Below, piece after piece: positions 13,078 to 61,756 of a stretch of 64,000 nucleotides of DNA. The notes beneath the pieces were generated by a model. The model was not told the origin of the DNA. It worked only from the letters and a program-made list of their open reading frames with translations, and did no database searches. Positions within the stretch are counted from its first letter, which is position 1. Each line of letters starts with the position of its first letter. Source of the DNA: Bacteroidales bacterium (lineage in GTDB: Bacteria > Bacteroidota > Bacteroidia > Bacteroidales > P3). The stretch lies in the NCBI GenBank assembly GCA_004551865.1, contig SFPR01000002.1, forward strand, positions 874 through 64,873. Reading direction: 5' to 3'. The position numbers were made by a program, and so were the translations under genes.

Positions 13078-14487
13078 ATGTTCATTCAACAACTGCAATA
13101 CCACTTTCAATACCCCTTCACCGAAGACCAACAACAACTTGCGGTCAAGCTATATGAATTTTTATTCAATTCGCCACACACAAACATCTTGATAATCGAC
13201 GGATATGCAGGAACAGGAAAAACAGGCATGGTGTCCGCACTTGTAAAGACCCTGCCTGCCTACAATATCAAGACCATACTTCTCGCACCCACCGGAAGAG
13301 CTGCAAAAGTTCTCAGTCGCTATTCGCAAAAGCCCGCCTCAACAATCCACAAACACATCTACTACGCCTCGGCCGACAAAGAAGGAAACATAAACCTCAA
13401 ACTAAAACAAAACAAAAACACCCAAACACTCTACATTGTCGATGAAGCATCAATGATTGGCGAAAGCGAACGGCTTTTCGACACAAACAGCCTTCTGAGC
13501 GACCTTATCACCCACTGCAACAACAAACAAGGAAACAAAATCATCTTTGTGGGCGACACAGCACAGCTCCCTCCGATAGGAAGCCCCTGCTCACCGGCAC
13601 TCGACAAAGACTATCTCAACTCACACTTCAATCAACCCACAGCCTACCACCACCTGAGGCAAGTCGTTCGACAAGCACTTCAATCAGGCATAGTAAAAAA
13701 CGCCTCAAACATACGTTGGTCATTGGCAAACAACCGAATAAAGCTGCCAATCTTCAAAACCGCAAACCAACAAGAAGTCTCCAAGGTAGAAGCCTTCGAC
13801 TTGGAAGACACCCTTCGCAGCGAATACAGACAAAACGGAGTGAACGAAGTGCTGATAATCACACGAACAAACAAACTCGCCAACCAAATAAACCAATACA
13901 TAAGAACACGAATACTCGAAAAAGAAAACCTCATCGACATTGGCGAAACGATAATGTCGGTCAAAAACAACTACCATTGGACCGACCAAGCAGCCCTCTC
14001 GGACTTTATTGCCAACGGAGATATGCTGCAAATCACACGAATATTCTCCTACGAAGACATCTACGACATGAAGTTTGCAGACATAGCCGTCAAGTTTATC
14101 GACTCACCCGAACAACAGGAGATAGAACTCACAATCATCTTAGACACACTCTCCGACAATCAAGCCTCACTGTCCGAAGACAAACAACGCTCCCTCTACA
14201 ATAATCTCTACAACCACTATAGTCAATACTCTTCGGACAAAGCAGTAATAAGACAGATGATAAAACAAGACAAACACTACAACGCCCTGCAAGTCAAGTT
14301 CTCCAACGCCCTCACCTGCCACAAGGCACAAGGAGGCGATTGGCACACAGTCTTCATTCAACAAGGCTATTTCTCACAAGACATGCTCACACCCGACTAC
14401 TTCCGATGGCTCTACACCGCAGTAACACGAGCCAAACAAAAGCTCTACTTGGTGAACTTCTCCGACGACTTCTTCCTTCAAGAGTAA
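13078..14487 (+). CDS. RecD/Pif1-like SF1 DNA helicase (AAA ATPase plus UvrD-like C-terminal domain)
   Basis: 469 aa. Walker A GYAGTGKT, Walker B YIVDEASM, GDTAQLPP, and C-terminal TCHKAQGGDW...YTAVTRAK. The start is 4 nt after the apbE stop. Confidence 0.8.
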   Translation: MFIQQLQYHFQYPFTEDQQQLAVKLYEFLFNSPHTNILIIDGYAGTGKTGMVSALVKTLPAYNIKTILLAPTGRAAKVLSRYSQKPASTIHKHIYYASADKEGNINLKLKQNKNTQTLYIVDEASMIGESERLFDTNSLLSDLITHCNNKQGNKIIFVGDTAQLPPIGSPCSPALDKDYLNSHFNQPTAYHHLRQVVRQALQSGIVKNASNIRWSLANNRIKLPIFKTANQQEVSKVEAFDLEDTLRSEYRQNGVNEVLIITRTNKLANQINQYIRTRILEKENLIDIGETIMSVKNNYHWTDQAALSDFIANGDMLQITRIFSYEDIYDMKFADIAVKFIDSPEQQEIELTIILDTLSDNQASLSEDKQRSLYNNLYNHYSQYSSDKAVIRQMIKQDKHYNALQVKFSNALTCHKAQGGDWHTVFIQQGYFSQDMLTPDYFRWLYTAVTRAKQKLYLVNFSDDFFLQE

Positions 14488-14542
14488 GCACTGCTCACTC
14501 CTGCAAGACTATTTCGACACACAAACCTCCAAACACAAAAAG

Positions 14543-14565
14543 GTCCGAGGCAGGACGCCTCGGAC
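14543..14565 (-). terminator. hairpin GTCCGAGGC-aggac-GCCTCGGAC followed by a T-run on the minus strand
   Basis: 9-bp GC-rich stem about 50 nt downstream of the minus-strand gene ending at 14615. AAAAA at 14537-14541 gives a U-run on the minus transcript. Confidence 0.6.
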
Positions 14566-14580
14566 ACCACAAGAAAAAAG

Positions 14581-14609
14581 AACTTTCTAAAGAAAGTTTA
14601 ATAATTTTC
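14581..14609 (+). terminator. weak AT-rich hairpin AACTTTC-taaa-GAAAGTT followed by TAATAATTTT
   Basis: Seen downstream of the helicase gene. The stem is short and AT-rich, so support is low. Confidence 0.3.
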
Positions 14610-14614
14610 GTCTG

Positions 14615-16348
14615 CTATTCTACAATTATCTTAGTTGAGTTTACACTCTTGCCGTCTTGAACCCTCAAAACGTACGCTCCCGAAGCCACATTGTTCAAGT
14701 CAAACACTCTGTCGCTTGTCTCATATACCTTTTGTCCCAATGCGTTATACACTTCTGTACGAACACTCTTGCCTCCGTAAACTCTGATTGAACGATTGTT
14801 GTTCACAACTCTTATGCTCTCTGCTTCGGCAACATCTGCTATCGAGACATTGTTCTTGGTTATCAAGAGTTTGAAACGGTCTGCGTTTTCGCCCTCTGCA
14901 ATATCGGTAGTATAAACATCGCCTTGGTTCATCACAACTTCCAAAGCTCCGTCAATCAAGGTAAGAGAGTATCCCTCAGGAATGTTGTCGGCAACAATAT
15001 CAACATTGCGGCTTTCAAACGACTTGATATTCATGGTTGCCGTGTAGTTTGTCGAACTTACTTCTTCCTTGCAAAGGTTTATTCCGTTGCAAATCAAATA
15101 AGGCTCTGCCACACTGCCGTCTCCAAACATCTTATTTGCATCAAAAATATCGTATCCGTCAGAAGCATCATCGTTTTGTGCAAACATAACAGGCACTTTG
15201 TAGCCCTCAGTCGAAACAGACACCTTTACAAACTCACGCTCTGCACTCTTGCTCTTGGCAGTTGAAGTTGAGTATTGATCATTGTTGAATTGGATTTGTC
15301 CGTCATTTGATGCCATATTTACAAAGAAGCCTTGTCCCACTTTGATTGTTCCGCTTGTTACATTCTCATCAAAGGTACTTCCGTTGTATTTGTAGACACA
15401 ACCGCCTTGAATAATACCCGAATTGGCATTGAGAAACTTTGTTATATCCAATGGGAACGAGAATGGATTTGCCAAAGCGAACCAACGACCTTTTTCATTG
15501 CTGCCTGCAGTGCTTGAATATGTCATTCTTCTGTTTTCATTTGTAACAACAGAAGAAGCAGTTATTGTATAATCGTTTGCGGGCCAAGCAAATATACCTT
15601 GTCCGCAAGGAAGAGCGTCTTGTTGTCCGCCGTCAATCCAGTGAAGATAGTTCTCCGCCCATTGATTTGTACCATAGTCAAATGCCAAAGCCCAAATCGA
15701 AGGAGCACCATTAGCTGCCAAAGGTGAAATATTCTCAACATGAGGAAAGCCTATGAAGTTCCATTTGTTTGCCGTCAAAGAAATGGAAATGCTTTGCTCT
15801 CCCTGATAACCAATAACCACAGCTCCCGGAACGATAGTTACCGTTCCTCCGGTGATTGTAGCAGTTGTAAAATCAACCACAGCTCCCGCAGCGATATTTA
15901 CCATTCCTTCGTTGATTGTAATAGCTCCCGTTATGCTCGAACCTTGATTGATATTCACAACTCCACCGCCTATGGTAAGATTTCCGTTGATTGCTCCACT
16001 ATTTGTAAGAGTTCCGGAAGTAATCGAAACATTTCCGCTAATTGTTCCACTATTTGTAAGAGTTCCTCCGCTGATTGTAGTACCATTTGTTGTAGTAGTA
16101 GTAAGAGTACCGCCATTAATAGAAAGTGAACCTCTGCTGATAGCAAGACTTGCTGCTTGTCCTGTGCCTGCCAAAGAAACATTGTTTCCATTTACTATTG
16201 AAACAGTAGAAGTTCCATCAGGGACTCCGCCACCTTTCCAAGTATCTCCTGAATTCCAATCCTGAGATTTGTTATCTGTTTGTTGTGCATTAACAATTGT
16301 TCCTATGCACAATAGCAATCCCAAAGCAAAAATACTTAATCTTTTCAT
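14615..16348 (-). CDS. secreted beta-helix repeat protein with a T9SS C-terminal sorting domain
   Basis: Signal peptide MKRLSIFALGLLLCIGTIVNAQ. N-terminal autotransporter-associated-like repeats (GGTLTNSGTISGNVSITSGTLTNSGAINGNLTIGGG). The C-terminal ~80 aa resemble a T9SS CTD (VYNALGQKVY...GAYVLRVQDGKSVNSTKIIVE). Confidence 0.75.
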   Translation of the reverse strand: MKRLSIFALGLLLCIGTIVNAQQTDNKSQDWNSGDTWKGGGVPDGTSTVSIVNGNNVSLAGTGQAASLAISRGSLSINGGTLTTTTTNGTTISGGTLTNSGTISGNVSITSGTLTNSGAINGNLTIGGGVVNINQGSSITGAITINEGMVNIAAGAVVDFTTATITGGTVTIVPGAVVIGYQGEQSISISLTANKWNFIGFPHVENISPLAANGAPSIWALAFDYGTNQWAENYLHWIDGGQQDALPCGQGIFAWPANDYTITASSVVTNENRRMTYSSTAGSNEKGRWFALANPFSFPLDITKFLNANSGIIQGGCVYKYNGSTFDENVTSGTIKVGQGFFVNMASNDGQIQFNNDQYSTSTAKSKSAEREFVKVSVSTEGYKVPVMFAQNDDASDGYDIFDANKMFGDGSVAEPYLICNGINLCKEEVSSTNYTATMNIKSFESRNVDIVADNIPEGYSLTLIDGALEVVMNQGDVYTTDIAEGENADRFKLLITKNNVSIADVAEAESIRVVNNNRSIRVYGGKSVRTEVYNALGQKVYETSDRVFDLNNVASGAYVLRVQDGKSVNSTKIIVE

Positions 16349-17191: not shown

Positions 17192-17401
17192 CAACTCTCG
17201 GGCTGAAAGCCCAAAAGCACTTAGCTCGGGGCAGAGCATAAGCGTCGCCCCCGAGTGAAGCGATACCACATTATTTTCGCACTGTAAGGGCAAAAGCGTT
17301 GAATACGGCTGATTTTTGGCAAACCAAACCGCCGTTTTGTCCGACCAAAACGCCATTTCGCAAAAATAGAACGGCGAGTTATTTTGCCAACTCGCCGTTT
17401 T
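17192..17401 (+). repeat. composite intergenic repeat, copy A (GGGCTGAAAGCCC...GCAGAGCATAAGCG... module plus GCCGTTTT hairpin module)
   Basis: Near-identical over about 114 nt (17192-17305) and about 83 nt (17319-17401) to 18446-18558 and 18613-18696, in the same orientation. Confidence 0.85.
17370..17399. terminator. hairpin AACGGCGAGTT-attttgcc-AACTCGCCGTT, T-rich on both sides
   Basis: 11-bp perfect stem about 60 nt downstream of the higA stop (minus strand). The minus-strand tail reads TTCTATTTTTG. Confidence 0.55.
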
Positions 17402-18192: not shown

Positions 18193-18241
18193 TGATAATC
18201 GGATTATAAAACAATTTTTTTGCTTGATAATCGGATTATCA
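18193..18241. repeat. palindrome array 1: TGATAATCGGATTATA, an A/T tract, then TGATAATCGGATTATCA
   Basis: Two 7-3-7 dyads read directly from the sequence. Same family as the arrays at 27019, 36796, 50769 and 59813. Confidence 0.85.
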
Positions 18242-18445: not shown

Positions 18446-18696
18446 CAACTCTCGGGCTGAAAGTCCAAAAGCAATTAGCTCGGGGCAGAGCGTAAGCGTC
18501 GCCCCGAGTAAAGCGATACCACATTATTTTCGCACTGTAAGAGCAAAAGCGTTGAATATGACCTCGATTTTTGCGGTCTTGTTGCACCTTTGGCGGTTGG
18601 CAATACTGCTTCGCAAAACCAAACCGCCGATTTGTTTGACCAAAACGCCATTTCGCAAAAATAAAACGGCGAGTTGCTTTGCCAACTCGCCGTTTT
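18446..18696 (+). repeat. composite intergenic repeat, copy B
   Basis: Direct repeat of 17192-17401 with about 40 nt of extra internal sequence (18559-18612). Confidence 0.85.
18665..18694. terminator. hairpin AACGGCGAGTT-gctttgcc-AACTCGCCGTT
   Basis: 11-bp stem about 65 nt downstream of the stop of the minus-strand gene 18760..19587. T-rich on both sides. Confidence 0.55.
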
Positions 18697-18759
18697 GTTT
18701 CTCAAAACCAACAAGGCTGAAAATCAGAACTCCAAAAGTGTTTTGACAAACAGAAGATG

Positions 18760-27018: not shown

Positions 27019-27169
27019 CGATTATCAACAATTATTACACCTTGATAATCGGATTATCTTCTCATGATAATGGTATTATCTTGGCGTGATAATGGTATTA
27101 TTTTCCCATGATAATCGGATTATCACGGCGTGATAATCCGATTATCAACAAAAAATTTTTTGATAATCA
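27019..27169. repeat. palindrome array 2: six units of TGATAAT-(CGG/GGT/CCG)-ATTATCA
   Basis: Units read at 27043-27058, 27065-27080, 27087-27102, 27109-27125 and 27131-27147, with half-sites at 27019-27030 and 27161-27169. Linkers are TTGGCG and CGGCG. Confidence 0.9.
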
Positions 27170-29797: not shown

Positions 29798-31129
29798 TCA
29801 GGAGAGCGAAAGGTAGAAAAACTTTGACAATTCTTCCCAATAGTTTGGAAAAGACTTCTCTACACAGTCGGGATTTTTGATGATAACTTTTTCATAGACC
29901 GAAGCGAAAAGAGACATTGCCATTGCAAATCGGTGATCGTTGTAACTATCTGTTTCCAAGACCTTTTTGTTGTCAAATAAAGAGGTTTCATACTCATAAA
30001 TCGCCAACGAAGAAGCATCGGAGTGCAATTTGAAACCAATTTTCTTCAACTCTGCAACAATGTTTCCCAAGCGGTCGGATTCTTTGTGGACAAGAGTATC
30101 AAGACCCTTGTATTCAAATGGTTGCCTCAAACAAATAGCCGTTACGACAAGCGGAAGAAACAAATCGGGGCAGGATTTGAAATCTATTGTTGCCACATTG
30201 TTGTTCTCTCTGCTTGCTTTTGAGTAAGAAAGCAAAGCATAATTGTCTGCAAACAAAGTCTTTACTCCGAAAAACTGCTCAAAAAACACCCTTACGACGG
30301 CATCTCCCTGCAATGATTTGGCTCTCAGACCTTTTATTTTGAGCGAAGGGAGCTTCAAAAGTGCCACAAGAGCATAGGCAAAGGCTGCCGCCGACCAGTC
30401 GGCTTCCACTTCAAAGTCTTTGAACTTGTATCCTACAGGGCTAATTTGCAGATTGTTATCCGACAAGCTCATTTCTGCTTCGCAATCTCTCATAAGAGAA
30501 AGCGTCATATCAATATACGGCTTTGAAACTTGGGCATCTGACAAACTGATACTCAGACCTTTTTGAGTATATGGAGCAATCATTGCCAAAGCACTTACAA
30601 ACTGGCTGCTGTAATTTGCCGGCAGAGTGATACAATCTCCTCCCGAAAGAGGTTTACCACTGATTTTCAGAGGGAAAATACGTCCCGAACCTGCAATTTC
30701 AATATCTGCACCCAAGCGTTTCAAAACATCTGTCAGAGGCATGAGCGGTCGATGTTCCATTCTCTCGTCCGCCCTTATCAACCACTTGCCGTAAGTGATT
30801 GAAAGCAAGGCTATAAGAAAGCGACAAGTCGTTCCTGCATTTTTACAGTCAAGTTCGACAAAACTATCTCGCCTGATGCTTGAAACCATTCGCCGTTTTG
30901 TCGGAATAAAACGGCGTTTTGTCAAAATAATCCGCCGTTTTATTTCAGCCAAATGGCGTTTTAGCAAGAGGGTATCGTCAGACGATGACAAATTGCTTAT
31001 TTTCAGCTCACTGTCTGCAAGAAAACGAATGATGAGAAGGCGATTGGAAATACTCTTTGAGCTTGGCAGTGAAAAAGAAAAGTCATCTTGCGGTTTTCGT
31101 CTGCCGATTGTTGCAAACAAATGCGTCAT
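29798..31129 (-). CDS. aroA: 3-phosphoshikimate 1-carboxyvinyltransferase (EPSP synthase) carrying an in-frame repeat-derived insertion
   Basis: 443 aa. LPSSKSISNRLLII, SSSDDT, KNAGTTCRF and ...ESDRLGNIV..., NDHRFAMA motifs. An extra basic segment, EIKRRIILTKRRFIPTKRRMVS, lies between the DDT and NAGT motifs. Confidence 0.85.
   Translation of the reverse strand: MTHLFATIGRRKPQDDFSFSLPSSKSISNRLLIIRFLADSELKISNLSSSDDTLLLKRHLAEIKRRIILTKRRFIPTKRRMVSSIRRDSFVELDCKNAGTTCRFLIALLSITYGKWLIRADERMEHRPLMPLTDVLKRLGADIEIAGSGRIFPLKISGKPLSGGDCITLPANYSSQFVSALAMIAPYTQKGLSISLSDAQVSKPYIDMTLSLMRDCEAEMSLSDNNLQISPVGYKFKDFEVEADWSAAAFAYALVALLKLPSLKIKGLRAKSLQGDAVVRVFFEQFFGVKTLFADNYALLSYSKASRENNNVATIDFKSCPDLFLPLVVTAICLRQPFEYKGLDTLVHKESDRLGNIVAELKKIGFKLHSDASSLAIYEYETSLFDNKKVLETDSYNDHRFAMAMSLFASVYEKVIIKNPDCVEKSFPNYWEELSKFFYLSLS
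30885..30965. repeat. GCCGTTTT/AAAACGGC hairpin-type repeat embedded in the aroA coding sequence
   Basis: CGCCGTTTTGTCGGAATAAAACGGCGTTTTGTCAAAATAATCCGCCGTTTTATTTCAGCCAAATGGCGTTTT. It shares the 17-mer CGTTTTGTCGGAATAAA with the intergenic repeat at 61684. Confidence 0.8.
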
Positions 31130-32310
31130 TTCTTTTTGTTGAGGTCGTAATCTATCATTTTGCGATAGAGAGTTCTCTCCGAAAATCCGAGTTCCTTTGC
31201 GGCTGCACTTCGTTTGCCTCCATTTCTTTCGAGGGCTGCAATGATAGCTTGCTTTTCCAAGTCTCTCAGATTGACGGTTTCGGTTTTCTTTGTGTGTTCT
31301 TCGGGATAGTCTATGACCATTTCGTTTTCCGTTTCAGCCAAAGGAGCAGCCAAAAGATGCGACTGAGTTGAAGAATTGAACATATTGATAATCACAGACT
31401 TCAATTTGACAACCTCAGCCTTCAAGTCTTCAATGTCTTTCTTGTTTTGCAAAACTATATTGACTATGTCGTCATTCTCACTGCAAGCACTCTCGTTTTG
31501 AACCACTATCGGAAGACGCTCCATTGGCGGAATGTAGATTTTTAACCTCTCTGCGTCTATCTCTCTGTTCATTTCAAGCAGGGAAATACGCTCTGCAATG
31601 TTTTTAAGCTCTCTGACATTTCCACGCCATGGGTAACCTTTCAAATAGTTTACCGCTTCGGGTGAGAGACTTATCCTCGGGATGTTGTATTTCTCGGCAA
31701 GTTCGCCGCAAAAATACCGAAACAACAAAGGAATGTCCTCTTGTCGGTCTCTCAAAGAAGGAACGGTTATGTTGATTTGGTTTAGTCGGTAATACAAATC
31801 GCTTCTGAACCTGCCTTGTTCAACAGCTTTCAGAAGGTTTACGTTTGTTGCGGCAACAATTCGCACATCGACCTTTACGGCTGTTGAAGCTCCCACAGGC
31901 AGAAACTCTCCGTTTTCGATAACTCGAAGAAGTTTTGCCTGCATTGTGTAAGGCAGTTCGCCAACTTCGTCAAGAAAAATAGTGCCATTGTCTGCCTCTG
32001 CAAAATATCCTCGTCTGTCTCTCTCGGCTCCCGTAAACGAACCTTTGACATGTCCGAACAATTCGCTCTCTATTGTTCCCTCGGGAATAGCTGCACAGTT
32101 TACCGCAATATATTTCTTTTGTTTTCTATTGCTGTACTGATGTATTATGCGGGAAAACACATCTTTTCCCGCACCACTTTCTCCCACAATCAGAACACTT
32201 GCATCGGTCTTTGCAACTCTTATTGCAATGTCGATAGCTCGGTTCAAAAGAGGACTGTTTCCAAATATTCTGAATTGTTTCTTGACTTTTTGTACGTCTG
32301 TTTCGGACAT
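31126..32310 (-). CDS. sigma-54-dependent transcriptional activator (AAA+ plus Fis-type HTH, no receiver domain)
   Basis: 394 aa. Walker A GESGAGKD, GSFTGA (GAFTGA variant), Walker B IFLDEVGELP, and C-terminal HTH AAKELGFSERTLYRKM. Confidence 0.85.
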   Translation of the reverse strand: MSETDVQKVKKQFRIFGNSPLLNRAIDIAIRVAKTDASVLIVGESGAGKDVFSRIIHQYSNRKQKKYIAVNCAAIPEGTIESELFGHVKGSFTGAERDRRGYFAEADNGTIFLDEVGELPYTMQAKLLRVIENGEFLPVGASTAVKVDVRIVAATNVNLLKAVEQGRFRSDLYYRLNQINITVPSLRDRQEDIPLLFRYFCGELAEKYNIPRISLSPEAVNYLKGYPWRGNVRELKNIAERISLLEMNREIDAERLKIYIPPMERLPIVVQNESACSENDDIVNIVLQNKKDIEDLKAEVVKLKSVIINMFNSSTQSHLLAAPLAETENEMVIDYPEEHTKKTETVNLRDLEKQAIIAALERNGGKRSAAAKELGFSERTLYRKMIDYDLNKKK

Positions 32311-36795: not shown

Positions 36796-36908
36796 GATTA
36801 CCAAAAATTTTTTCTTGTTGATAATCGGATTATCAAGGCGTGATAATGGTATTATCATGGGAAGATAATCAGATTATCACGCCGTGATAATGGTATTACC
36901 ACGCCTTG
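36796..36908. repeat. palindrome array 3: half-site plus A/T tract, then four 7-3-7 dyads nested in a larger inverted repeat
   Basis: Units at 36819-36835 (TGATAATCGGATTATCA), 36841-36857 (TGATAATGGTATTATCA), 36863-36879 (AGATAATCAGATTATCA) and 36885-36901 (TGATAATGGTATTACCA). The flanks CAAGGCG...CGCCTTG are themselves inverted. Confidence 0.9.
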
Positions 36909-37042
36909 AAGTAAGTTGAAAATCCTTTTTTTACGGTCTTCAAACTTGGAATGTTTTCGGCAATACACCACAATGCTGCGATATATGGCTGTTTTGGAAA
37001 ATTCAATCAATGTTTTGCGAAAACATAATCGTGAATTTTCGC

Positions 37043-42714: not shown

Positions 42715-42960
42715 TGAAAGAAATCGCCGCCTTTTCACAAAAAATCGCCACTTTTTTGGGAAAAACCGCCGCTATTTTTCAAAAAAGTCGGCGTTTTGAA
42801 AGGAACAAAACGGCGTTTCAAAACGACAAAACGCCGTTTTATTTTTGCAAATCGGCGTTTTGTCGGCTCGAAACGCCACAAAAGAGCATTTTGTCGGCGT
42901 TTTATTTGGGCAATTCTTGCAGACAGAGTAAGGAAAGGCGAAAAAATCGCCTTATTTCGA
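42715..42960. repeat. dense block of alternating GCCGTTTT / AAAACGGC bricks
   Basis: AATCGCCGCCTTTT, AATCGCCACTTTTTT, ACCGCCGCTATTTTT, GTCGGCGTTTTG, AAAACGGCGTTTC, AAAACGCCGTTTTATTTTT, ATCGGCGTTTTGTCGG, GTCGGCGTTTTATTT and AATCGCCTTATTT were read in series. Confidence 0.8.
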
Positions 42961-46590: not shown

Positions 46591-46631
46591 AACAAGAAAC
46601 TTTGTTGTTTATCATATTGATTATTTTTTTC

Positions 46632-46666
46632 GGCGTTTTGTTTCGGCAAAACGCCGTTTTGTTTTC
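46632..46666 (+). terminator. Rho-independent terminator CGGCGTTTTG-tttcgg-CAAAACGCCG followed by TTTTGTTTT
   Basis: 10-bp perfect stem plus a T-tract, 42 nt after the EF-G paralog stop. Confidence 0.8.
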
Positions 46667-47933: not shown

Positions 47934-47954
47934 TTCTATACTCTTATTTTTTAG

Positions 47955-48029
47955 TACCCCGTAGGGGATTCGAACCCCTGATTTCAAGAATGAAAATCTT
48001 GCGTCCTAGGCCAGCTAGACGAACGGGGC
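47955..48029 (-). tRNA. tRNA-Glu (anticodon UUC)
   Basis: The minus strand reads GCCCCGTTCGTCTAGCTGGCCTAGGACGCAAGATTTTCATTCTTGAAATCAGGGGTTCGAATCCCCTACGGGGTA. It has a 7-bp acceptor stem, a CAAGA/TCTTG anticodon stem with loop TTTTCAT (anticodon TTC), and a GGTTCGAATCC T-loop. 75 nt, CCA not encoded. Confidence 0.92.
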
Positions 48030-50594: not shown

Positions 50595-50630
50595 TCGCCG
50601 TTTCATCAAGCTGAAACGGCGATTTATTTT
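50595..50630 (+). terminator. terminator TCGCCGTTTCA-tcaagc-TGAAACGGCGA followed by TTTATTTT
   Basis: 11-bp perfect stem plus a T-rich tail, about 60 nt after the stop at 50532. Confidence 0.7.
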
Positions 50631-50768: not shown

Positions 50769-50917
50769 GATTACCAAAAAAATTTCTTGTTGGTAATAGG
50801 ATTACCAGCCTCATGGTAATAGGATTACCTTGGCGTGGTAATACCATTACCAAGCCGAAAAAAATTTTGGTAATACCATTACCAAGCCGAAAAAAATTTT
50901 GGTAATACCATTACCAA
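50769..50917. repeat. palindrome array 4: variant dyads TGGTAAT-(AGG/ACC)-ATTACCA, including a 32-bp tandem duplication
   Basis: Units at 50791-50807, 50814-50829, 50836-50852, 50869-50884 and 50901-50917. GGTAATACCATTACCAAGCCGAAAAAAATTTT is repeated exactly at 50837-50868 and 50869-50900, with a partial third copy. Confidence 0.9.
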
Positions 50918-50954
50918 CCGCAAAAGTGCGAAAGTAGTATATAAATCGAGGTTA

Positions 50955-59684: not shown

Positions 59685-59720
59685 AGATTACAATCCTCAA
59701 AAACAAAACATTCAACAAAT

Positions 59721-59762
59721 AAAACGGCGTTCTGCACAGAGCAGAACGCCGTTTTGTTTTTG
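59721..59762 (+). terminator. terminator AAAACGGCGTTCTGC-acaga-GCAGAACGCCGTTTT followed by GTTTTT
   Basis: 15-bp perfect stem, 37 nt after the rnfE stop, followed by a T-tract. Confidence 0.85.
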
Positions 59763-59812
59763 TGAAAAGGCGTTTTGGCAGAATAACTCGCCGATTTATT
59801 TTGCCAAACACA

Positions 59813-59883
59813 GGATTATCAAAAAAATTTTGGCTTGATAATCCGATTATCAATAAGAAAAAAATTTGATAATCCTATTATCA
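59813..59883. repeat. palindrome array 5: half-site plus A7T4, TGATAATCCGATTATCA, an A/T tract, then TGATAATCCTATTATCA
   Basis: Units at 59836-59852 and 59867-59883, ending ACCGCAAGG as in array 4 (ACCGCAAAAG). Confidence 0.9.
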
Positions 59884-61510: not shown

Positions 61511-61546
61511 GGCGTTTTCATCAAACCAAAACGCCGTTTTGTTTTT
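61511..61546 (+). terminator. terminator GGCGTTTT-catcaaacc-AAAACGCC followed by GTTTTGTTTTT
   Basis: 8-bp stem plus a T-tract, 50 nt after the stop at 61460. Confidence 0.7.
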
Positions 61547-61564
61547 CTGAAAACAGCAATTATT

Positions 61565-61678
61565 TAACGCTTTTGCCCTTTCTGGGCGAATATTTTAATG
61601 AATTATCAACTCTGGGCAACGCTTACGCTCTGCCCCGAACTAATCTATTTTGGACTTTCAGCCCGAGAGTTGTGCAAA
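61565..61678 (-). repeat. inverted, diverged copy (C) of the 17192/18446 repeat module
   Basis: AACGCTTTTGCCCTT...GCTTACGCTCTGCCCCGA.CTAA...TTTTGGACTTTCAGCCCGAGAGTTGTGC is the reverse complement of the module at 18446-18558. Confidence 0.75.
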
Positions 61679-61756
61679 AAGGCGTTTTGTCGGAATAAAT
61701 CGGAGATTGGATTTTGATTGTCGGTTTGGCTTTTCTTGTTACCTTTGCAAATGGTT

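What the first reader, a model, noticed from the sequence alone, without database searches (positions are those of the whole stretch)
30885..30965. An intergenic-type hairpin repeat is inserted in frame inside the EPSP synthase gene (aroA)
The segment CGCCGTTTTGTCGGAATAAAACGGCGTTTTGTCAAAATAATCCGCCGTTTTATTTCAGCCAAATGGCGTTTT lies inside aroA. It shares an identical 17-mer (CGTTTTGTCGGAATAAA) with the intergenic repeat at 61684.

On the coding (minus) strand it is read through without a stop as ...LKRHLAEIKRRIILTKRRFIPTKRRMVSS..., a strongly basic stretch. It sits between the conserved SSSDDT and KNAGT(T)CRF motifs. In the Bacteroides AroA sequences I recall, these two motifs are separated by only about 10-15 residues, against about 35 here.

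So a repeat that elsewhere forms terminator-like hairpins has been tolerated in frame in an essential enzyme, close to the substrate-binding NAGT loop. The hairpin CGCCGTTTT...AAAACGGCG also persists in the mRNA.
Basis: partly seen in the sequence, partly recalled or inferred. Interest (0 to 1): 0.65.

Follow-up and report, generated by a model that had tools for sequence, protein, structure and literature searches.

The report
Intergenic repeat array read inside aroA
A short palindromic DNA repeat that normally sits between genes in this pig-gut Bacteroidales bacterium is present as a four-unit array inside the EPSP synthase gene and is translated as an extra surface loop; this resembles the in-frame palindromic repeats known from Rickettsia, here in a new phylum and repeat family.

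Summary
Window 30884-30965 lies inside aroA (29798-31129, minus strand, 443 aa). It is a four-unit, 21-nt-period array with core AAAACGSCGTTTT, translated as KRHLAEI-KRRIILT-KRRFIPT-KRRMVSS.

A profile built only from 52 intergenic arrays in related metagenome contigs matches it over nearly its full length (E=9e-17). It is the only coding copy among 49 genes in the window. All 7 Arg codons in the array are CGN, including the rare CGG.

AroA is otherwise intact. Catalytic residues are conserved, the model has pLDDT 90.5, and residues 74-87 are predicted to be disordered.

The picture is richer than a single insertion. The linker is 19 aa in other Bacteroidales AroA but 27, 34 or 41 aa in a clade of about 26 protein clusters, so it changes in 7-aa (one-unit) steps, and the tree requires several gains or losses. 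The 56%-identical ortholog carries a different core (GGCTGTTT) that matches its own genome's intergenic arrays. Near-identical strains differ by clustered changes at the core centre.

The terminator-like form is on the antisense strand only, and RNA contigs read through.

Best reading: a tolerated, DNA-driven, in-frame repeat array, like RPEs or intragenic REPs. This is a new member of a known kind.

The parts
29798..31129 (-). aroA (EPSP synthase) coding sequence, 443 aa, intact
   Evidence: ORF. Pfam PF00275 at 2.2e-66. Catalytic positions K25, S26, R30, D52, G99, T100, R103, R127, S175, Q176, D322, K349, E350, R353, H399, R400 and K425 are invariant across 26 homologs. AF2 model pLDDT 90.5. 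Foldseek TM 0.83 to E. coli EPSPS.
30884..30965 (-). Four-unit, 21-nt-period repeat array in frame (about residues 56-82). It is a full-length member of the intergenic AAAACGSCGTTTT array family.
   Evidence: nhmmer with a profile of 52 metagenome intergenic arrays: HMM positions 5-86 of 90, E=9e-17. TRF and the repeat finder give period 21. Spacers are shared with other arrays.
30941..30961 (-). Unit 1 (sense AAAACGCCATTTGGCTGAAAT, K57-I63). It overlaps the C-terminal turns of the native helix.
   Evidence: Codon layout. Aligns with the helix of insert-less orthologs.
30920..30940 (-). Unit 2 (AAAACGGCGGATTATTTTGAC, K64-T70); extends the helix in the model
30899..30919 (-). Unit 3 (AAAACGCCGTTTTATTCCGAC, K71-T77), with a perfect palindromic core; contains most of the 17-mer
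30878..30898 (-). Unit 4 (AAAACGGCGAATGGTTTCAAG, K78-S84), with a decayed 3' half
   Evidence: In the 85% ortholog L081 this unit reads AAAACGCCGTTTT.
30891..30916 (+). Terminator-like hairpin plus T-run, on the strand antisense to aroA only
   Evidence: Antisense fold z = -5.0, sense fold z = -3.4.
61683..61699 (+). Intergenic twin of the 17-mer, next to a ~130-nt repeated element
42783..42877 (.). Best intergenic array of the same family in the window, lying between divergent genes
   Evidence: nhmmer E=7e-18. Flanking gene map. TRF period 21.
18616..18707 (.). Intergenic family copy, including a 14-pair terminator-like hairpin (18696-18663)
59714..59808 (.). Intergenic family copy, including a 15-pair terminator-like hairpin (59755-59721)
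31126..32310 (-). Upstream sigma-54-dependent activator gene. Its stop overlaps the aroA start by 4 nt, so the two are likely co-transcribed.
   Evidence: The same arrangement is present in all ten orthologous loci.

Best explanation
The segment is a copy of a genome-wide, short-period, quasi-palindromic repeat array that has come to lie in frame inside aroA and is tolerated as extra peptide. The family typically has four units, each a 13-nt core AAAACGSCGTTTT plus an 8-nt spacer.

Shown: it is a sequence member of the intergenic family; it is translated in frame; the enzyme's catalytic residues and fold are kept.

Inferred mechanism:
- The array entered, or was rebuilt, by a DNA-level process: insertion or recombination with dispersed copies, followed by slippage or unequal exchange.
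- Because the unit is 21 nt, any gain or loss of units keeps the frame. This explains why orthologs differ in 7-aa steps.
- The core has no stop codon in any frame, and arrays are unusually stop-poor, so read-through is easy.
- The site tolerates the insert because it is the distal linker between a helix and a strand, where the Bacteroidota enzyme lost the beta-hairpin that class I enzymes have.
- The native helix codons (CGS CAT/TGT TTG G) already resemble a core, and may provide the microhomology that makes this site a recurrent target.
- Exchange with dispersed copies, or shared mutational pressure at the core centre, keeps each lineage's aroA array looking like that genome's own repeats.

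I read the peptide as a passenger (a helix extension plus a floppy loop) rather than an adaptation. No sense-strand termination is expected.
For: Family membership: profile HMM E=9e-17 for the window and 3e-19 for the 85% ortholog. The insert segments rank top of 1578 coding segments for recurrent 10-mers. About 10 other contigs at the same depth match 33-41 nt of the insert, one with a 31-nt exact match. Spacer types are shared.

DNA-level rather than protein-level origin: 7 of 7 Arg codons are CGN, including 3 CGG, against 41% CGN and 2.8% CGG in 48 other genes, p=0.002. The peptides differ entirely between lineages (KRRFIPT against KGCFGAA/KQPFGKS), while each DNA matches its own genome's arrays. 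The same family is read in other frames in other genes (KT[AP]F, QNA).

Unit-step dynamics: linkers of 19, 27, 34 and 41 aa, with sister lineages that differ by 1 or 2 units. Clustered 4-nt changes at the core centre among strains 3-4% apart, P=0.0016 and 0.0007.

Ease of read-through: 40% of frames are open in arrays against 14% in shuffles.

Tolerance: invariant catalytic residues; model pLDDT 90.5 with only residues 74-87 below 50; length fixed at 443 aa in 26 sequences of two species; the array diverges at the gene-average rate, 15.5% against 13.3%.

Transcription: the terminator form is antisense only, and RNA-run contigs of 2.4-9.4 kb span the insert with no joints.
Against: No insertion event has been caught: there is no empty site in a close relative, no target-site duplication, and no identified transposase.

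Independent insertions and one old insertion with concerted evolution cannot be told apart.

The 41-aa insert of L084 and the 34-aa inserts give no significant match, or only a marginal one, to the family profile. Part of the linker expansion may therefore be unrelated to the repeat, or too decayed to tell.

The (K/R)RR cores are invariant across two species. That could reflect selection on DNA, RNA or protein rather than neutrality.

Neutrality of the peptide is inferred from a model, not measured.

Logan RNA contigs have no strand and may contain DNA.
Confidence: 0.65

Rival explanations
1. The arrays are functional cis-elements: phased binding sites for an abundant DNA-binding protein, or a structured RNA element. 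On this view the copy inside aroA is kept by selection for that function. It might modulate the sigma-54-activator/aroA operon, or stop antisense transcription. Lineage-specific cores would reflect co-evolution with the binding factor.
For: Spacing is strict at 21-22 nt, which is two helical turns; the cores are palindromic; runs of four units are preferred. Arrays are enriched in divergent (5') intergenic regions: 22 of 63 against 43 of 214 background gaps. The aroA array tracks the genome-specific core variant in L082. The cores are invariant in 26 sequences from two species. A complete terminator-like hairpin exists on the antisense strand. The array lies about 170-250 nt downstream of the upstream gene's stop, in an operon with no intergenic space.
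Against: No binding protein or RNA function is known or testable here. The genes downstream of aroA differ between loci, so there is no conserved downstream target. Orthologs with 27-aa linkers lack any array, so the element is dispensable for the operon. The array diverges at the gene-average rate, including at third positions. There is no Rfam match.
Confidence: 0.2
2. The insert is a protein-level adaptation: a basic amphipathic heptad helix (KRRxIxT, three times) selected for a new property of AroA, such as nucleic-acid, membrane or partner binding. Its similarity to the intergenic repeats would be secondary.
For: The heptad periodicity and strongly basic composition. The model extends the native helix through residue 72. 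The K/R-R-R triplets are invariant within two species.
Against: Orthologs with inserts of equal length encode unrelated, non-basic peptides (KGCFGAAKQPFGKSFGCF; RRLSIETKRLRLGMLTKAD). Arg codon choice is that of the repeat, not of the genome. Residues 74-87 are modelled as disordered. The DNA matches the intergenic arrays over spacers as well as cores.
Confidence: 0.06
3. The array arose by simple in-frame tandem duplication (slippage) of a native 21-nt heptad codon block of aroA, and resembles the intergenic repeats only by chance or by composition.
For: The 27-aa orthologs already hold one K-Q/R-R-I/F-x-x-T-like heptad at this place (KQRISNT, RERTASI). The first unit overlaps native helix codons. 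Length changes come in whole units.
Against: The profile E=9e-17 comes from arrays that contain no aroA sequence. Matches of 31-41 nt, spacers included, are found at other loci of the same organism. L082's units carry that genome's own core variant and share a spacer with its intergenic array. The single heptad DNA of L087 and L088 shows no similarity to the core.
Confidence: 0.05
4. The motif is a DNA-uptake-type signal, accumulated by biased uptake and recombination wherever it is tolerated, including this variable loop.
For: A dense short motif: 25 strict cores in 64 kb. Inverted pairs form terminator-like hairpins. There are lineage-specific variants. Known uptake sequences sit preferentially at poorly conserved residues (PMC2817400).
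Against: Known uptake sequences are 35-65% intragenic (PMC2817400). Here only 1 of 49 genes in the window carries a copy, and only 8 of 105 arrays fall in possible ORFs. The strict 21-nt tandem architecture is not a feature of uptake sequences. Competence cannot be tested here.
Confidence: 0.04

Closest known systems
Rickettsia palindromic elements (RPEs) inserted in frame in protein-coding genes
   Same: A dispersed palindromic repeat found in both intergenic and coding DNA. It is inserted in frame in housekeeping genes, encodes an extra peptide at a position compatible with the fold, and shows lineage-specific proliferation. One direct parallel is the 63-84-bp RPE-7-like insert in PheT of all Rickettsia (PMC1779305; review PMC10969869).
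   Different: RPEs are single elements of 100-150 bp with a conserved encoded peptide. They are abundant in ORFs (44 cases in R. conorii) and occur in obligate intracellular Alphaproteobacteria. Here the element is an array of 21-nt units (82 nt). The encoded peptide is not conserved between lineages, coding copies are rare, and the host is a free-living gut Bacteroidales. No sequence relationship was tested or is expected.
Intragenic REPs / BIME-like clusters (GTAG- and CGTC-tagged repetitive extragenic palindromes)
   Same: Short palindromic units are often arranged close together in alternating orientation and can fold into larger structures. Most copies are extragenic, but some lie inside known genes as dimers or groups encoding 20-30 aa, probably in loops or linkers (PMC3733652). 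The 27-aa, four-unit array here fits that description.
   Different: The units carry no GTAG or CGTC tag. Multi-unit arrays are enriched between divergent genes rather than downstream of genes or between convergent ones. No RAYT transposase was sought or seen. The strict 21-22-nt periodicity and preferred four-unit runs are distinctive.
DNA uptake sequences (USS/DUS) in coding regions
   Same: A short, over-represented motif whose inverted pairs form terminators. It shows lineage 'dialects', and its coding copies sit at poorly conserved positions and shape the local peptide (PMC2817400).
   Different: Uptake sequences are frequent inside genes and are not tandem arrays. Here the copies are almost wholly intergenic and tandem.
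In-frame intragenic tandem repeats (contingency-type VNTRs)
   Same: The unit length is a multiple of three, and copy-number steps between lineages keep the frame.
   Different: No copy-number variation is seen within species: all 26 sequences are 443 aa and four metagenomes show no indel. The units belong to a dispersed intergenic family rather than being private to the gene.

Membership tests
In-frame palindromic repeat insertion (RPE / intragenic-REP phenomenon) | The inserted DNA belongs to a dispersed repeat family that is mostly intergenic | tested here: met
   Profile from 52 intergenic arrays hits aroA at E=9e-17. All other window copies are intergenic. 97 of 105 arrays in related contigs lie outside ORFs. 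About 10 other same-depth loci match the insert.
In-frame palindromic repeat insertion (RPE / intragenic-REP phenomenon) | Palindromic, hairpin-forming sequence | tested here: met
   Inverted repeats of 26 nt at 81% complementarity. Fold z = -3.4 (sense) and -5.0 (antisense).
In-frame palindromic repeat insertion (RPE / intragenic-REP phenomenon) | Reading frame preserved, and the segment is absent from orthologs outside the lineage | tested here: met
   443-aa ORF without a stop. Linker of 41 aa against 19 aa in outgroups, a 66-nt difference.
In-frame palindromic repeat insertion (RPE / intragenic-REP phenomenon) | The insert lies at a position compatible with the fold and function of the host protein | tested here: inconclusive
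   The model keeps the EPSPS fold (pLDDT 90.5, TM 0.83), with the insert as a helix extension plus a low-confidence loop. Catalytic residues are invariant. Enzyme activity was not measured.
In-frame palindromic repeat insertion (RPE / intragenic-REP phenomenon) | Sequence homology to the described RPE families | not tested
   No RPE models were available. Homology is not expected, given the phylum and the unit size.
REP (repetitive extragenic palindrome) super-families | An unpaired GTAG or CGTC tag at one end of the palindrome | tested here: not met
   The aligned four-unit arrays show the core AAAACGSCGTTTT with spacers ATTTTGCC, GTCSGAAT, ATTCCGAC and GCRAAAAT, and no conserved GTAG or CGTC. 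Criterion taken from PMC3733652.
REP (repetitive extragenic palindrome) super-families | Located predominantly downstream of genes, between unidirectional or convergent ORFs | tested here: not met
   Arrays of 3 or more units: divergent 22, convergent 12, tandem 29. Background gaps: 43, 46 and 125. Single hairpins do sit at 3' ends.
REP (repetitive extragenic palindrome) super-families | Association with a RAYT (Y1) transposase gene | not tested
   The window's ORFs were not scanned for Y1 transposases, and only 64 kb of the genome was available.
MITE | Terminal inverted repeats of 15-30 bp and target-site duplications | tested here: inconclusive
   Array ends often carry inverted spacer types (GCAAAAAT ... 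ATTTTTGC). No defined TIR or target-site duplication could be delimited, and none is evident at the aroA borders.
DNA uptake sequence | A high share of copies inside coding regions (35-65% in known cases) | tested here: not met
   1 of 49 window genes, and 8 of 105 arrays in possible ORFs. Reference values from PMC2817400.
DNA uptake sequence | Preferential uptake of motif-bearing DNA by competent cells | not testable with these tools
   This needs an experiment.
EPSP synthase (AroA), the host gene | Pfam PF00275 over the full length, conserved S3P/PEP-binding residues, two-domain EPSPS fold | tested here: met
Intrinsic terminator acting on aroA mRNA | A G+C-rich stem followed by a U-run on the sense strand | tested here: not met
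   The only terminator-like site in aroA is on the + strand, antisense to the gene. The sense hairpin is followed by AAUGGUUUCA. RNA-run contigs span the site.

The most novel reading that the evidence does not exclude
The 21-nt arrays are phased recognition sites of a genome-wide DNA-binding or DNA-processing system, and its motif drifts between lineages (CGSCG, GGCTG, CAGCG, TGCTG). On this reading, the aroA linker is a recurrent landing or conversion site, because its native helix codons mimic a core. Several lineages would then have captured or rewritten an in-frame array independently, and that array stays in sequence register with the rest of the genome's sites. That would make this a case of concerted evolution between non-coding sites and a piece of an enzyme's coding sequence.
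Probability: 0.2. Interest if true: 0.7.

Novelty: new member of a known kind. Interest (0 to 1): 0.45.

Why it matters
It extends the 'selfish or passenger palindromic DNA inside essential genes' phenomenon from Rickettsia and a few REP-rich Proteobacteria and Verrucomicrobia to gut Bacteroidales, with a repeat family that is very different and, as far as I could find, undescribed.

The 21-nt unit gives a simple mechanical reason why such arrays can grow and shrink inside a gene without breaking it. The comparison between lineages shows DNA-level forces, not protein function, writing up to 22 residues of an enzyme.

In practice, the segment can mislead annotation, alignment-based phylogeny, and any structural or inhibitor modelling of this AroA. 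The same repeat family breaks metagenome assemblies at this point (run X31).

If the arrays prove to be functional sites, the aroA copy would be a natural experiment in overlapping coding and non-coding constraints.

Tried and rejected
It returned only relatives at 39% identity or less, which were useless for the close clade. I replaced it with the look-up of encoding contigs.

(2) A cross-matrix of recurrent 8-mers was swamped by composition, so I redid it with 10-mers.

(3) Rfam gave only a tRNA; no known RNA family covers the repeats.

(4) I looked for unit copy-number variation within species and found none, either in 26 cluster members or in four metagenomes.

(5) I looked for excision or splicing of the insert in RNA-labelled runs and found no joints.

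(6) I tested whether the L084, L086, L087 and L088 inserts match their own genomes' arrays. L084 and L086 gave only non-significant 9-10-mers, and L087 and L088 gave nothing. L209 was marginal at E=0.024.

(7) I tested whether the strong profile hit inside the L082 MurL/MurD gene is a clean insertion. It is not: it overlies a variable stretch that includes the conserved IAD motif.

(8) I searched for closer relatives of P0003 to date the gain or loss of units, and none exist in the database.

(9) I folded the ~130-nt element next to the 17-mer twin. It shows no covariation.

(10) The 'native heptad duplication only' reading is rejected on the profile and spacer evidence.
Full report
OBSERVATION. 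It lies inside a 443-aa ORF on the minus strand, 29798-31129, which Pfam identifies as EPSP synthase over its full length (2.2e-66). The 17-mer CGTTTTGTCGGAATAAA occurs exactly twice in the window, at 30894 and 61683, with 0.03 matches expected by chance. The minus-strand reading ...LKRHLAEIKRRIILTKRRFIPTKRRMVSS... has no stop and sits between SSSDDT and CKNAGTTCRF. The segment is periodic: three to four tandem 21-nt units, so it is translated as heptads.

THE REPEAT FAMILY. The motif CGSCGTTTT occurs 17 times on the + strand and its complement 8 times; about 0.5 per strand would be expected (my estimate). Every copy outside aroA lies between long ORFs. Several copies are the strongest terminator-like hairpins in the window: 59755-59721 (15 pairs), 18696-18663 (14 pairs), 46631-46656 and 50595-50622. 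Others form 21-nt-period arrays, for example 42783-42877 between divergent genes.

Several large pig-gut contigs carried multiple arrays each, and some of these contigs share the window's other repeat classes or are 84% identical to it. Across these loci:
- Core spacing is 21 nt (213 cases) or 22 nt (102 cases), and runs of exactly four units are the commonest, with 61 runs.
- Spacers come from a small set: ATTTTGCC, GTCSGAAT, ATTCCGAC, GCRAAAAT and GCTGAAAT.
- Only 8 of the 105 arrays in loci of similar GC content lie in possible ORFs.
- Arrays are enriched between divergent genes, 22 of 63 against 43 of 214 background gaps. Multi-unit arrays are therefore not primarily terminators.

MEMBERSHIP OF THE aroA SEGMENT. 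A profile HMM built from 52 of these arrays, none from aroA, matches window 30884-30965 over HMM positions 5-86 of 90 at E=9e-17. This is the second-best hit in the 64-kb window. It matches the 85%-identical ortholog L081 at E=3e-19. The array therefore has the typical four units, and the first (AAAACGCCATTTGGCTGAAAT, K57-I63) overlaps the codons of the native helix.

Of 1578 coding segments of 123 nt in the window, the four that overlap the insert take the top four ranks for recurrent 10-mers (15, 15, 13, 9). The next best score is 6 and the 99th percentile is 4.

In four independent metagenomes, one contig carries aroA with the insert intact and no indel. About ten other contigs of the same depth match only 30889-30945 (33-41 nt at 90-100% identity, one with a 31-nt exact match present twice) and then run into unrelated flanks.

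ORTHOLOGS. The organism is a pig-gut Bacteroidales. The 85% cluster is named 'Candidatus Onthomorpha sp.' by one source.

The linker between T53 and C95 has these lengths:
- 41 aa in the window, P0001, P0002, P0003 and P0007.
- 34 aa in three subgroups.
- 27 aa in P0020, P0023 and P0024.
- 19 aa in all more distant Bacteroidales AroA.

Within the clade, lengths therefore differ by 7 aa, which is one 21-nt unit. A tree built with the linker masked places P0003 (41 aa) as sister to P0020 (27 aa) at 68% identity, and P0007 (41 aa) as sister to a 34-aa group at about 75%. Several independent gains or losses are required.

Canonical class I enzymes (V. cholerae 3nvs, E. coli 1g6s) also have about 44 residues here, forming a beta-hairpin. 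The Bacteroidota short form is thus the derived state, and this clade re-expanded it.

THE INSERT TRACKS EACH GENOME'S OWN REPEATS. The 56% ortholog (L082) has an insert of equal length, but its cores are GGCTGTTT/AAACAGCC, translated as KGCFGAA KQPFGKS FGCFDNS. L082's own intergenic regions carry AAAAGGCTGTTT units in 21-nt arrays that alternate with CGSCGTTT units, at 2768, 6724, 6766 and 18414. One spacer (GAAAATCGTTT) is also shared.

In a cross-test, the window's recurrent 10-mers hit its own insert at 15 positions in 123 nt, against 7 in the remaining 1217 nt of aroA, and hit L082's insert 0 times. L082's recurrent 10-mers hit its own insert 5 times, against 2 in the rest of its aroA.

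In the 34-aa group, strains only 3.1-3.6% divergent carry AAACAGCGTTTC, AAACGCCGTTTC or AAATGCTGTTTC at the same position. This includes a run of four consecutive differences (P=0.0016), and 4 of the 47 differences fall within the 12-nt core (P=0.0007). These changes are consistent with short-patch conversion or with CpG-type hypermutation; that is inference.

The inserts of L084, L086, L087 and L088 give no significant match to the family. Repeat identity is therefore solid only for the window, L081 and L082.

DNA-LEVEL VERSUS PROTEIN-LEVEL.
- All 7 Arg codons in the array are CGN, and 3 of them are CGG. In 48 other window genes CGN makes up 41% of Arg codons and CGG 2.8% (Fisher p=0.002).
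- The encoded peptides are unrelated between lineages.
- The same family is read in other frames elsewhere: KT[AP]F in an anti-sigma-like protein and in a TPR protein, and QNA in the MurD part of an L082 gene. The MurD case is not a clean insertion.
- 40% of reading frames across intergenic arrays are open, against 14% in shuffles.
- Between the window and L081 the array diverges at the gene-average rate, 15.5% against 13.3%.
- Within each species the length is fixed and the (K/R)RR cores are invariant.

PROTEIN. Catalytic residues are invariant. The AlphaFold model has pLDDT 90.5. The native helix 51-63 is predicted to extend to residue 72, and residues 74-87 fall below pLDDT 50. The fold matches closed EPSP synthases at TM 0.83. 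From the known EPSPS topology, helix N-termini point to the cleft, so the C-terminus of this helix and the start of strand 91-94 are distal to it. 'Close to the NAGT loop' therefore holds in sequence, and probably not in space (inference).

RNA. The only terminator-like site in aroA (30891-30916 plus a T-run) is on the + strand, antisense to the gene. The sense RNA still folds (z = -3.4; antisense z = -5.0) but has no U-run after the stem. Contigs from RNA-labelled runs, 2.4-9.4 kb long, span the insert with no joints. One run's assembly breaks at the repeat. Logan contigs carry no strand information and may include DNA, so this supports read-through only weakly.

INTERPRETATION. The best-supported reading is a tolerated in-frame array of a dispersed palindromic repeat. 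It was placed and reshaped by DNA-level processes (recombination with dispersed copies, and slippage in 21-nt steps) in a distal linker that can absorb it. The main rival is that the arrays are functional, phased cis-elements and that the aroA copy is kept for that reason. The strict phasing, the 5'-region enrichment and the genome-specific core variants are what such a model predicts. Against it, orthologs without any array, the non-conserved downstream genes and the average divergence rate all argue that the aroA copy is not essential.

COMPARISON AND VERDICT. In-frame palindromic repeats in housekeeping genes are known:
- Rickettsia RPEs, including a 63-84-bp RPE-7-like insert in PheT (PMC1779305; PMC10969869).
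- Intragenic REP dimers or groups encoding 20-30 aa (PMC3733652).

This case works like those, but it is not a member of the GTAG/CGTC REP super-families: there is no tag, and the genomic distribution is different. It also does not fit the pattern of uptake sequences, which are common inside genes (PMC2817400).

I file it as a new member of a known kind. Its noteworthy features are the 21-nt unit, the 7-aa length steps across lineages, and the co-variation with each genome's own repeats. Interest is moderate.

LIMITS. Only 64 kb of the genome was available, together with flanks of 21 kb or less in relatives. No insertion event or mobilising enzyme was seen. Function was inferred from models and conservation only.

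Noticed in passing
window 27043-27146, 36819-36909, 18225-18241, 59836-59883: A second intergenic repeat class: a palindrome TGATAATNNNATTATCA in tandem arrays of 22-nt period (4-5 copies), at several intergenic sites. One metagenome locus (L124) shares it.
   Followed up: partly
window 50792-50925: A third class: the palindrome GGTAATNNNATTACC in an array of 22- to 32-nt period (2.8 copies of a 32-nt unit at 96% identity). It is shared with metagenome locus L131 at 81% identity.
   Followed up: partly
window 17192-17318, 18446-18573, 61536-61672 (reversed): A repeated element of about 130 nt (91% and 75% identity between copies), each copy adjacent to an AAAACGSCGTTTT array. The 17-mer twin at 61683 lies just beyond the end of the third copy. 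It has no Rfam match, and three copies show no covariation in a consensus fold.
   Followed up: partly
window 31126-32310 with 29798-31129; also L081, L082, L084, L086, L087, L088, L209, L210, L211: A sigma-54-dependent activator gene (394 aa; Sigma54_activat + HTH_8) overlaps the aroA start by 1-4 nt in nine of the loci examined and ends two bases before it in L211. This is a conserved and unusual gene pair for a shikimate-pathway enzyme.
   Followed up: no
L082 14353-14426 (inside the 890-aa MurL/Mur-ligase gene, 13234-15906, minus strand): A three-unit, 21-nt-period array (CAAAACGCCGTT..., read as NQNAVIAD QNAEIIC RNADLPI) scores E=1e-10 against the array profile. It lies inside the MurD-like N-terminal domain and overlaps the conserved IAD motif. 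L082 is about 10 aa longer there than its closest relatives, but this is not a clean insertion.
   Followed up: partly
L093 1787-1870 and L100 6466-6517 (both from the same 384-kb pig-gut contig): Arrays of the same family are read in frame as KT[AP]F... within a 365-aa anti-sigma-like protein (weak zf-HC2 hit plus a TM segment) and within a 227-aa TPR protein. In both cases the array lies in an apparent linker.
   Followed up: partly
Alignments A1 and A6; PDB 3nvs, 1g6s: Bacteroidota AroA generally lacks the roughly 22-residue beta-hairpin that class I EPSP synthases have between the SDD helix and the NAGT strand. Several NCBI MAG records name these AroA proteins 'hypothetical protein'.
   Followed up: partly
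L086, L209 and L210 aroA, nt 207-218: The core-centre variants CGCCG, CAGCG and TGCTG among strains about 3% apart can mostly be explained by transitions at CpG (CG to TG or CA), which hints at methylation-linked hypermutation of the core. L086's CAGCG would also need a C/G change at the central base. Gene conversion is the alternative explanation.
   Followed up: no
window 47954-48029: A tRNA-Glu (UUC) gene; a GGCGTTT/GCCGTTTT pair lies immediately upstream of its 5' end.
   Followed up: no
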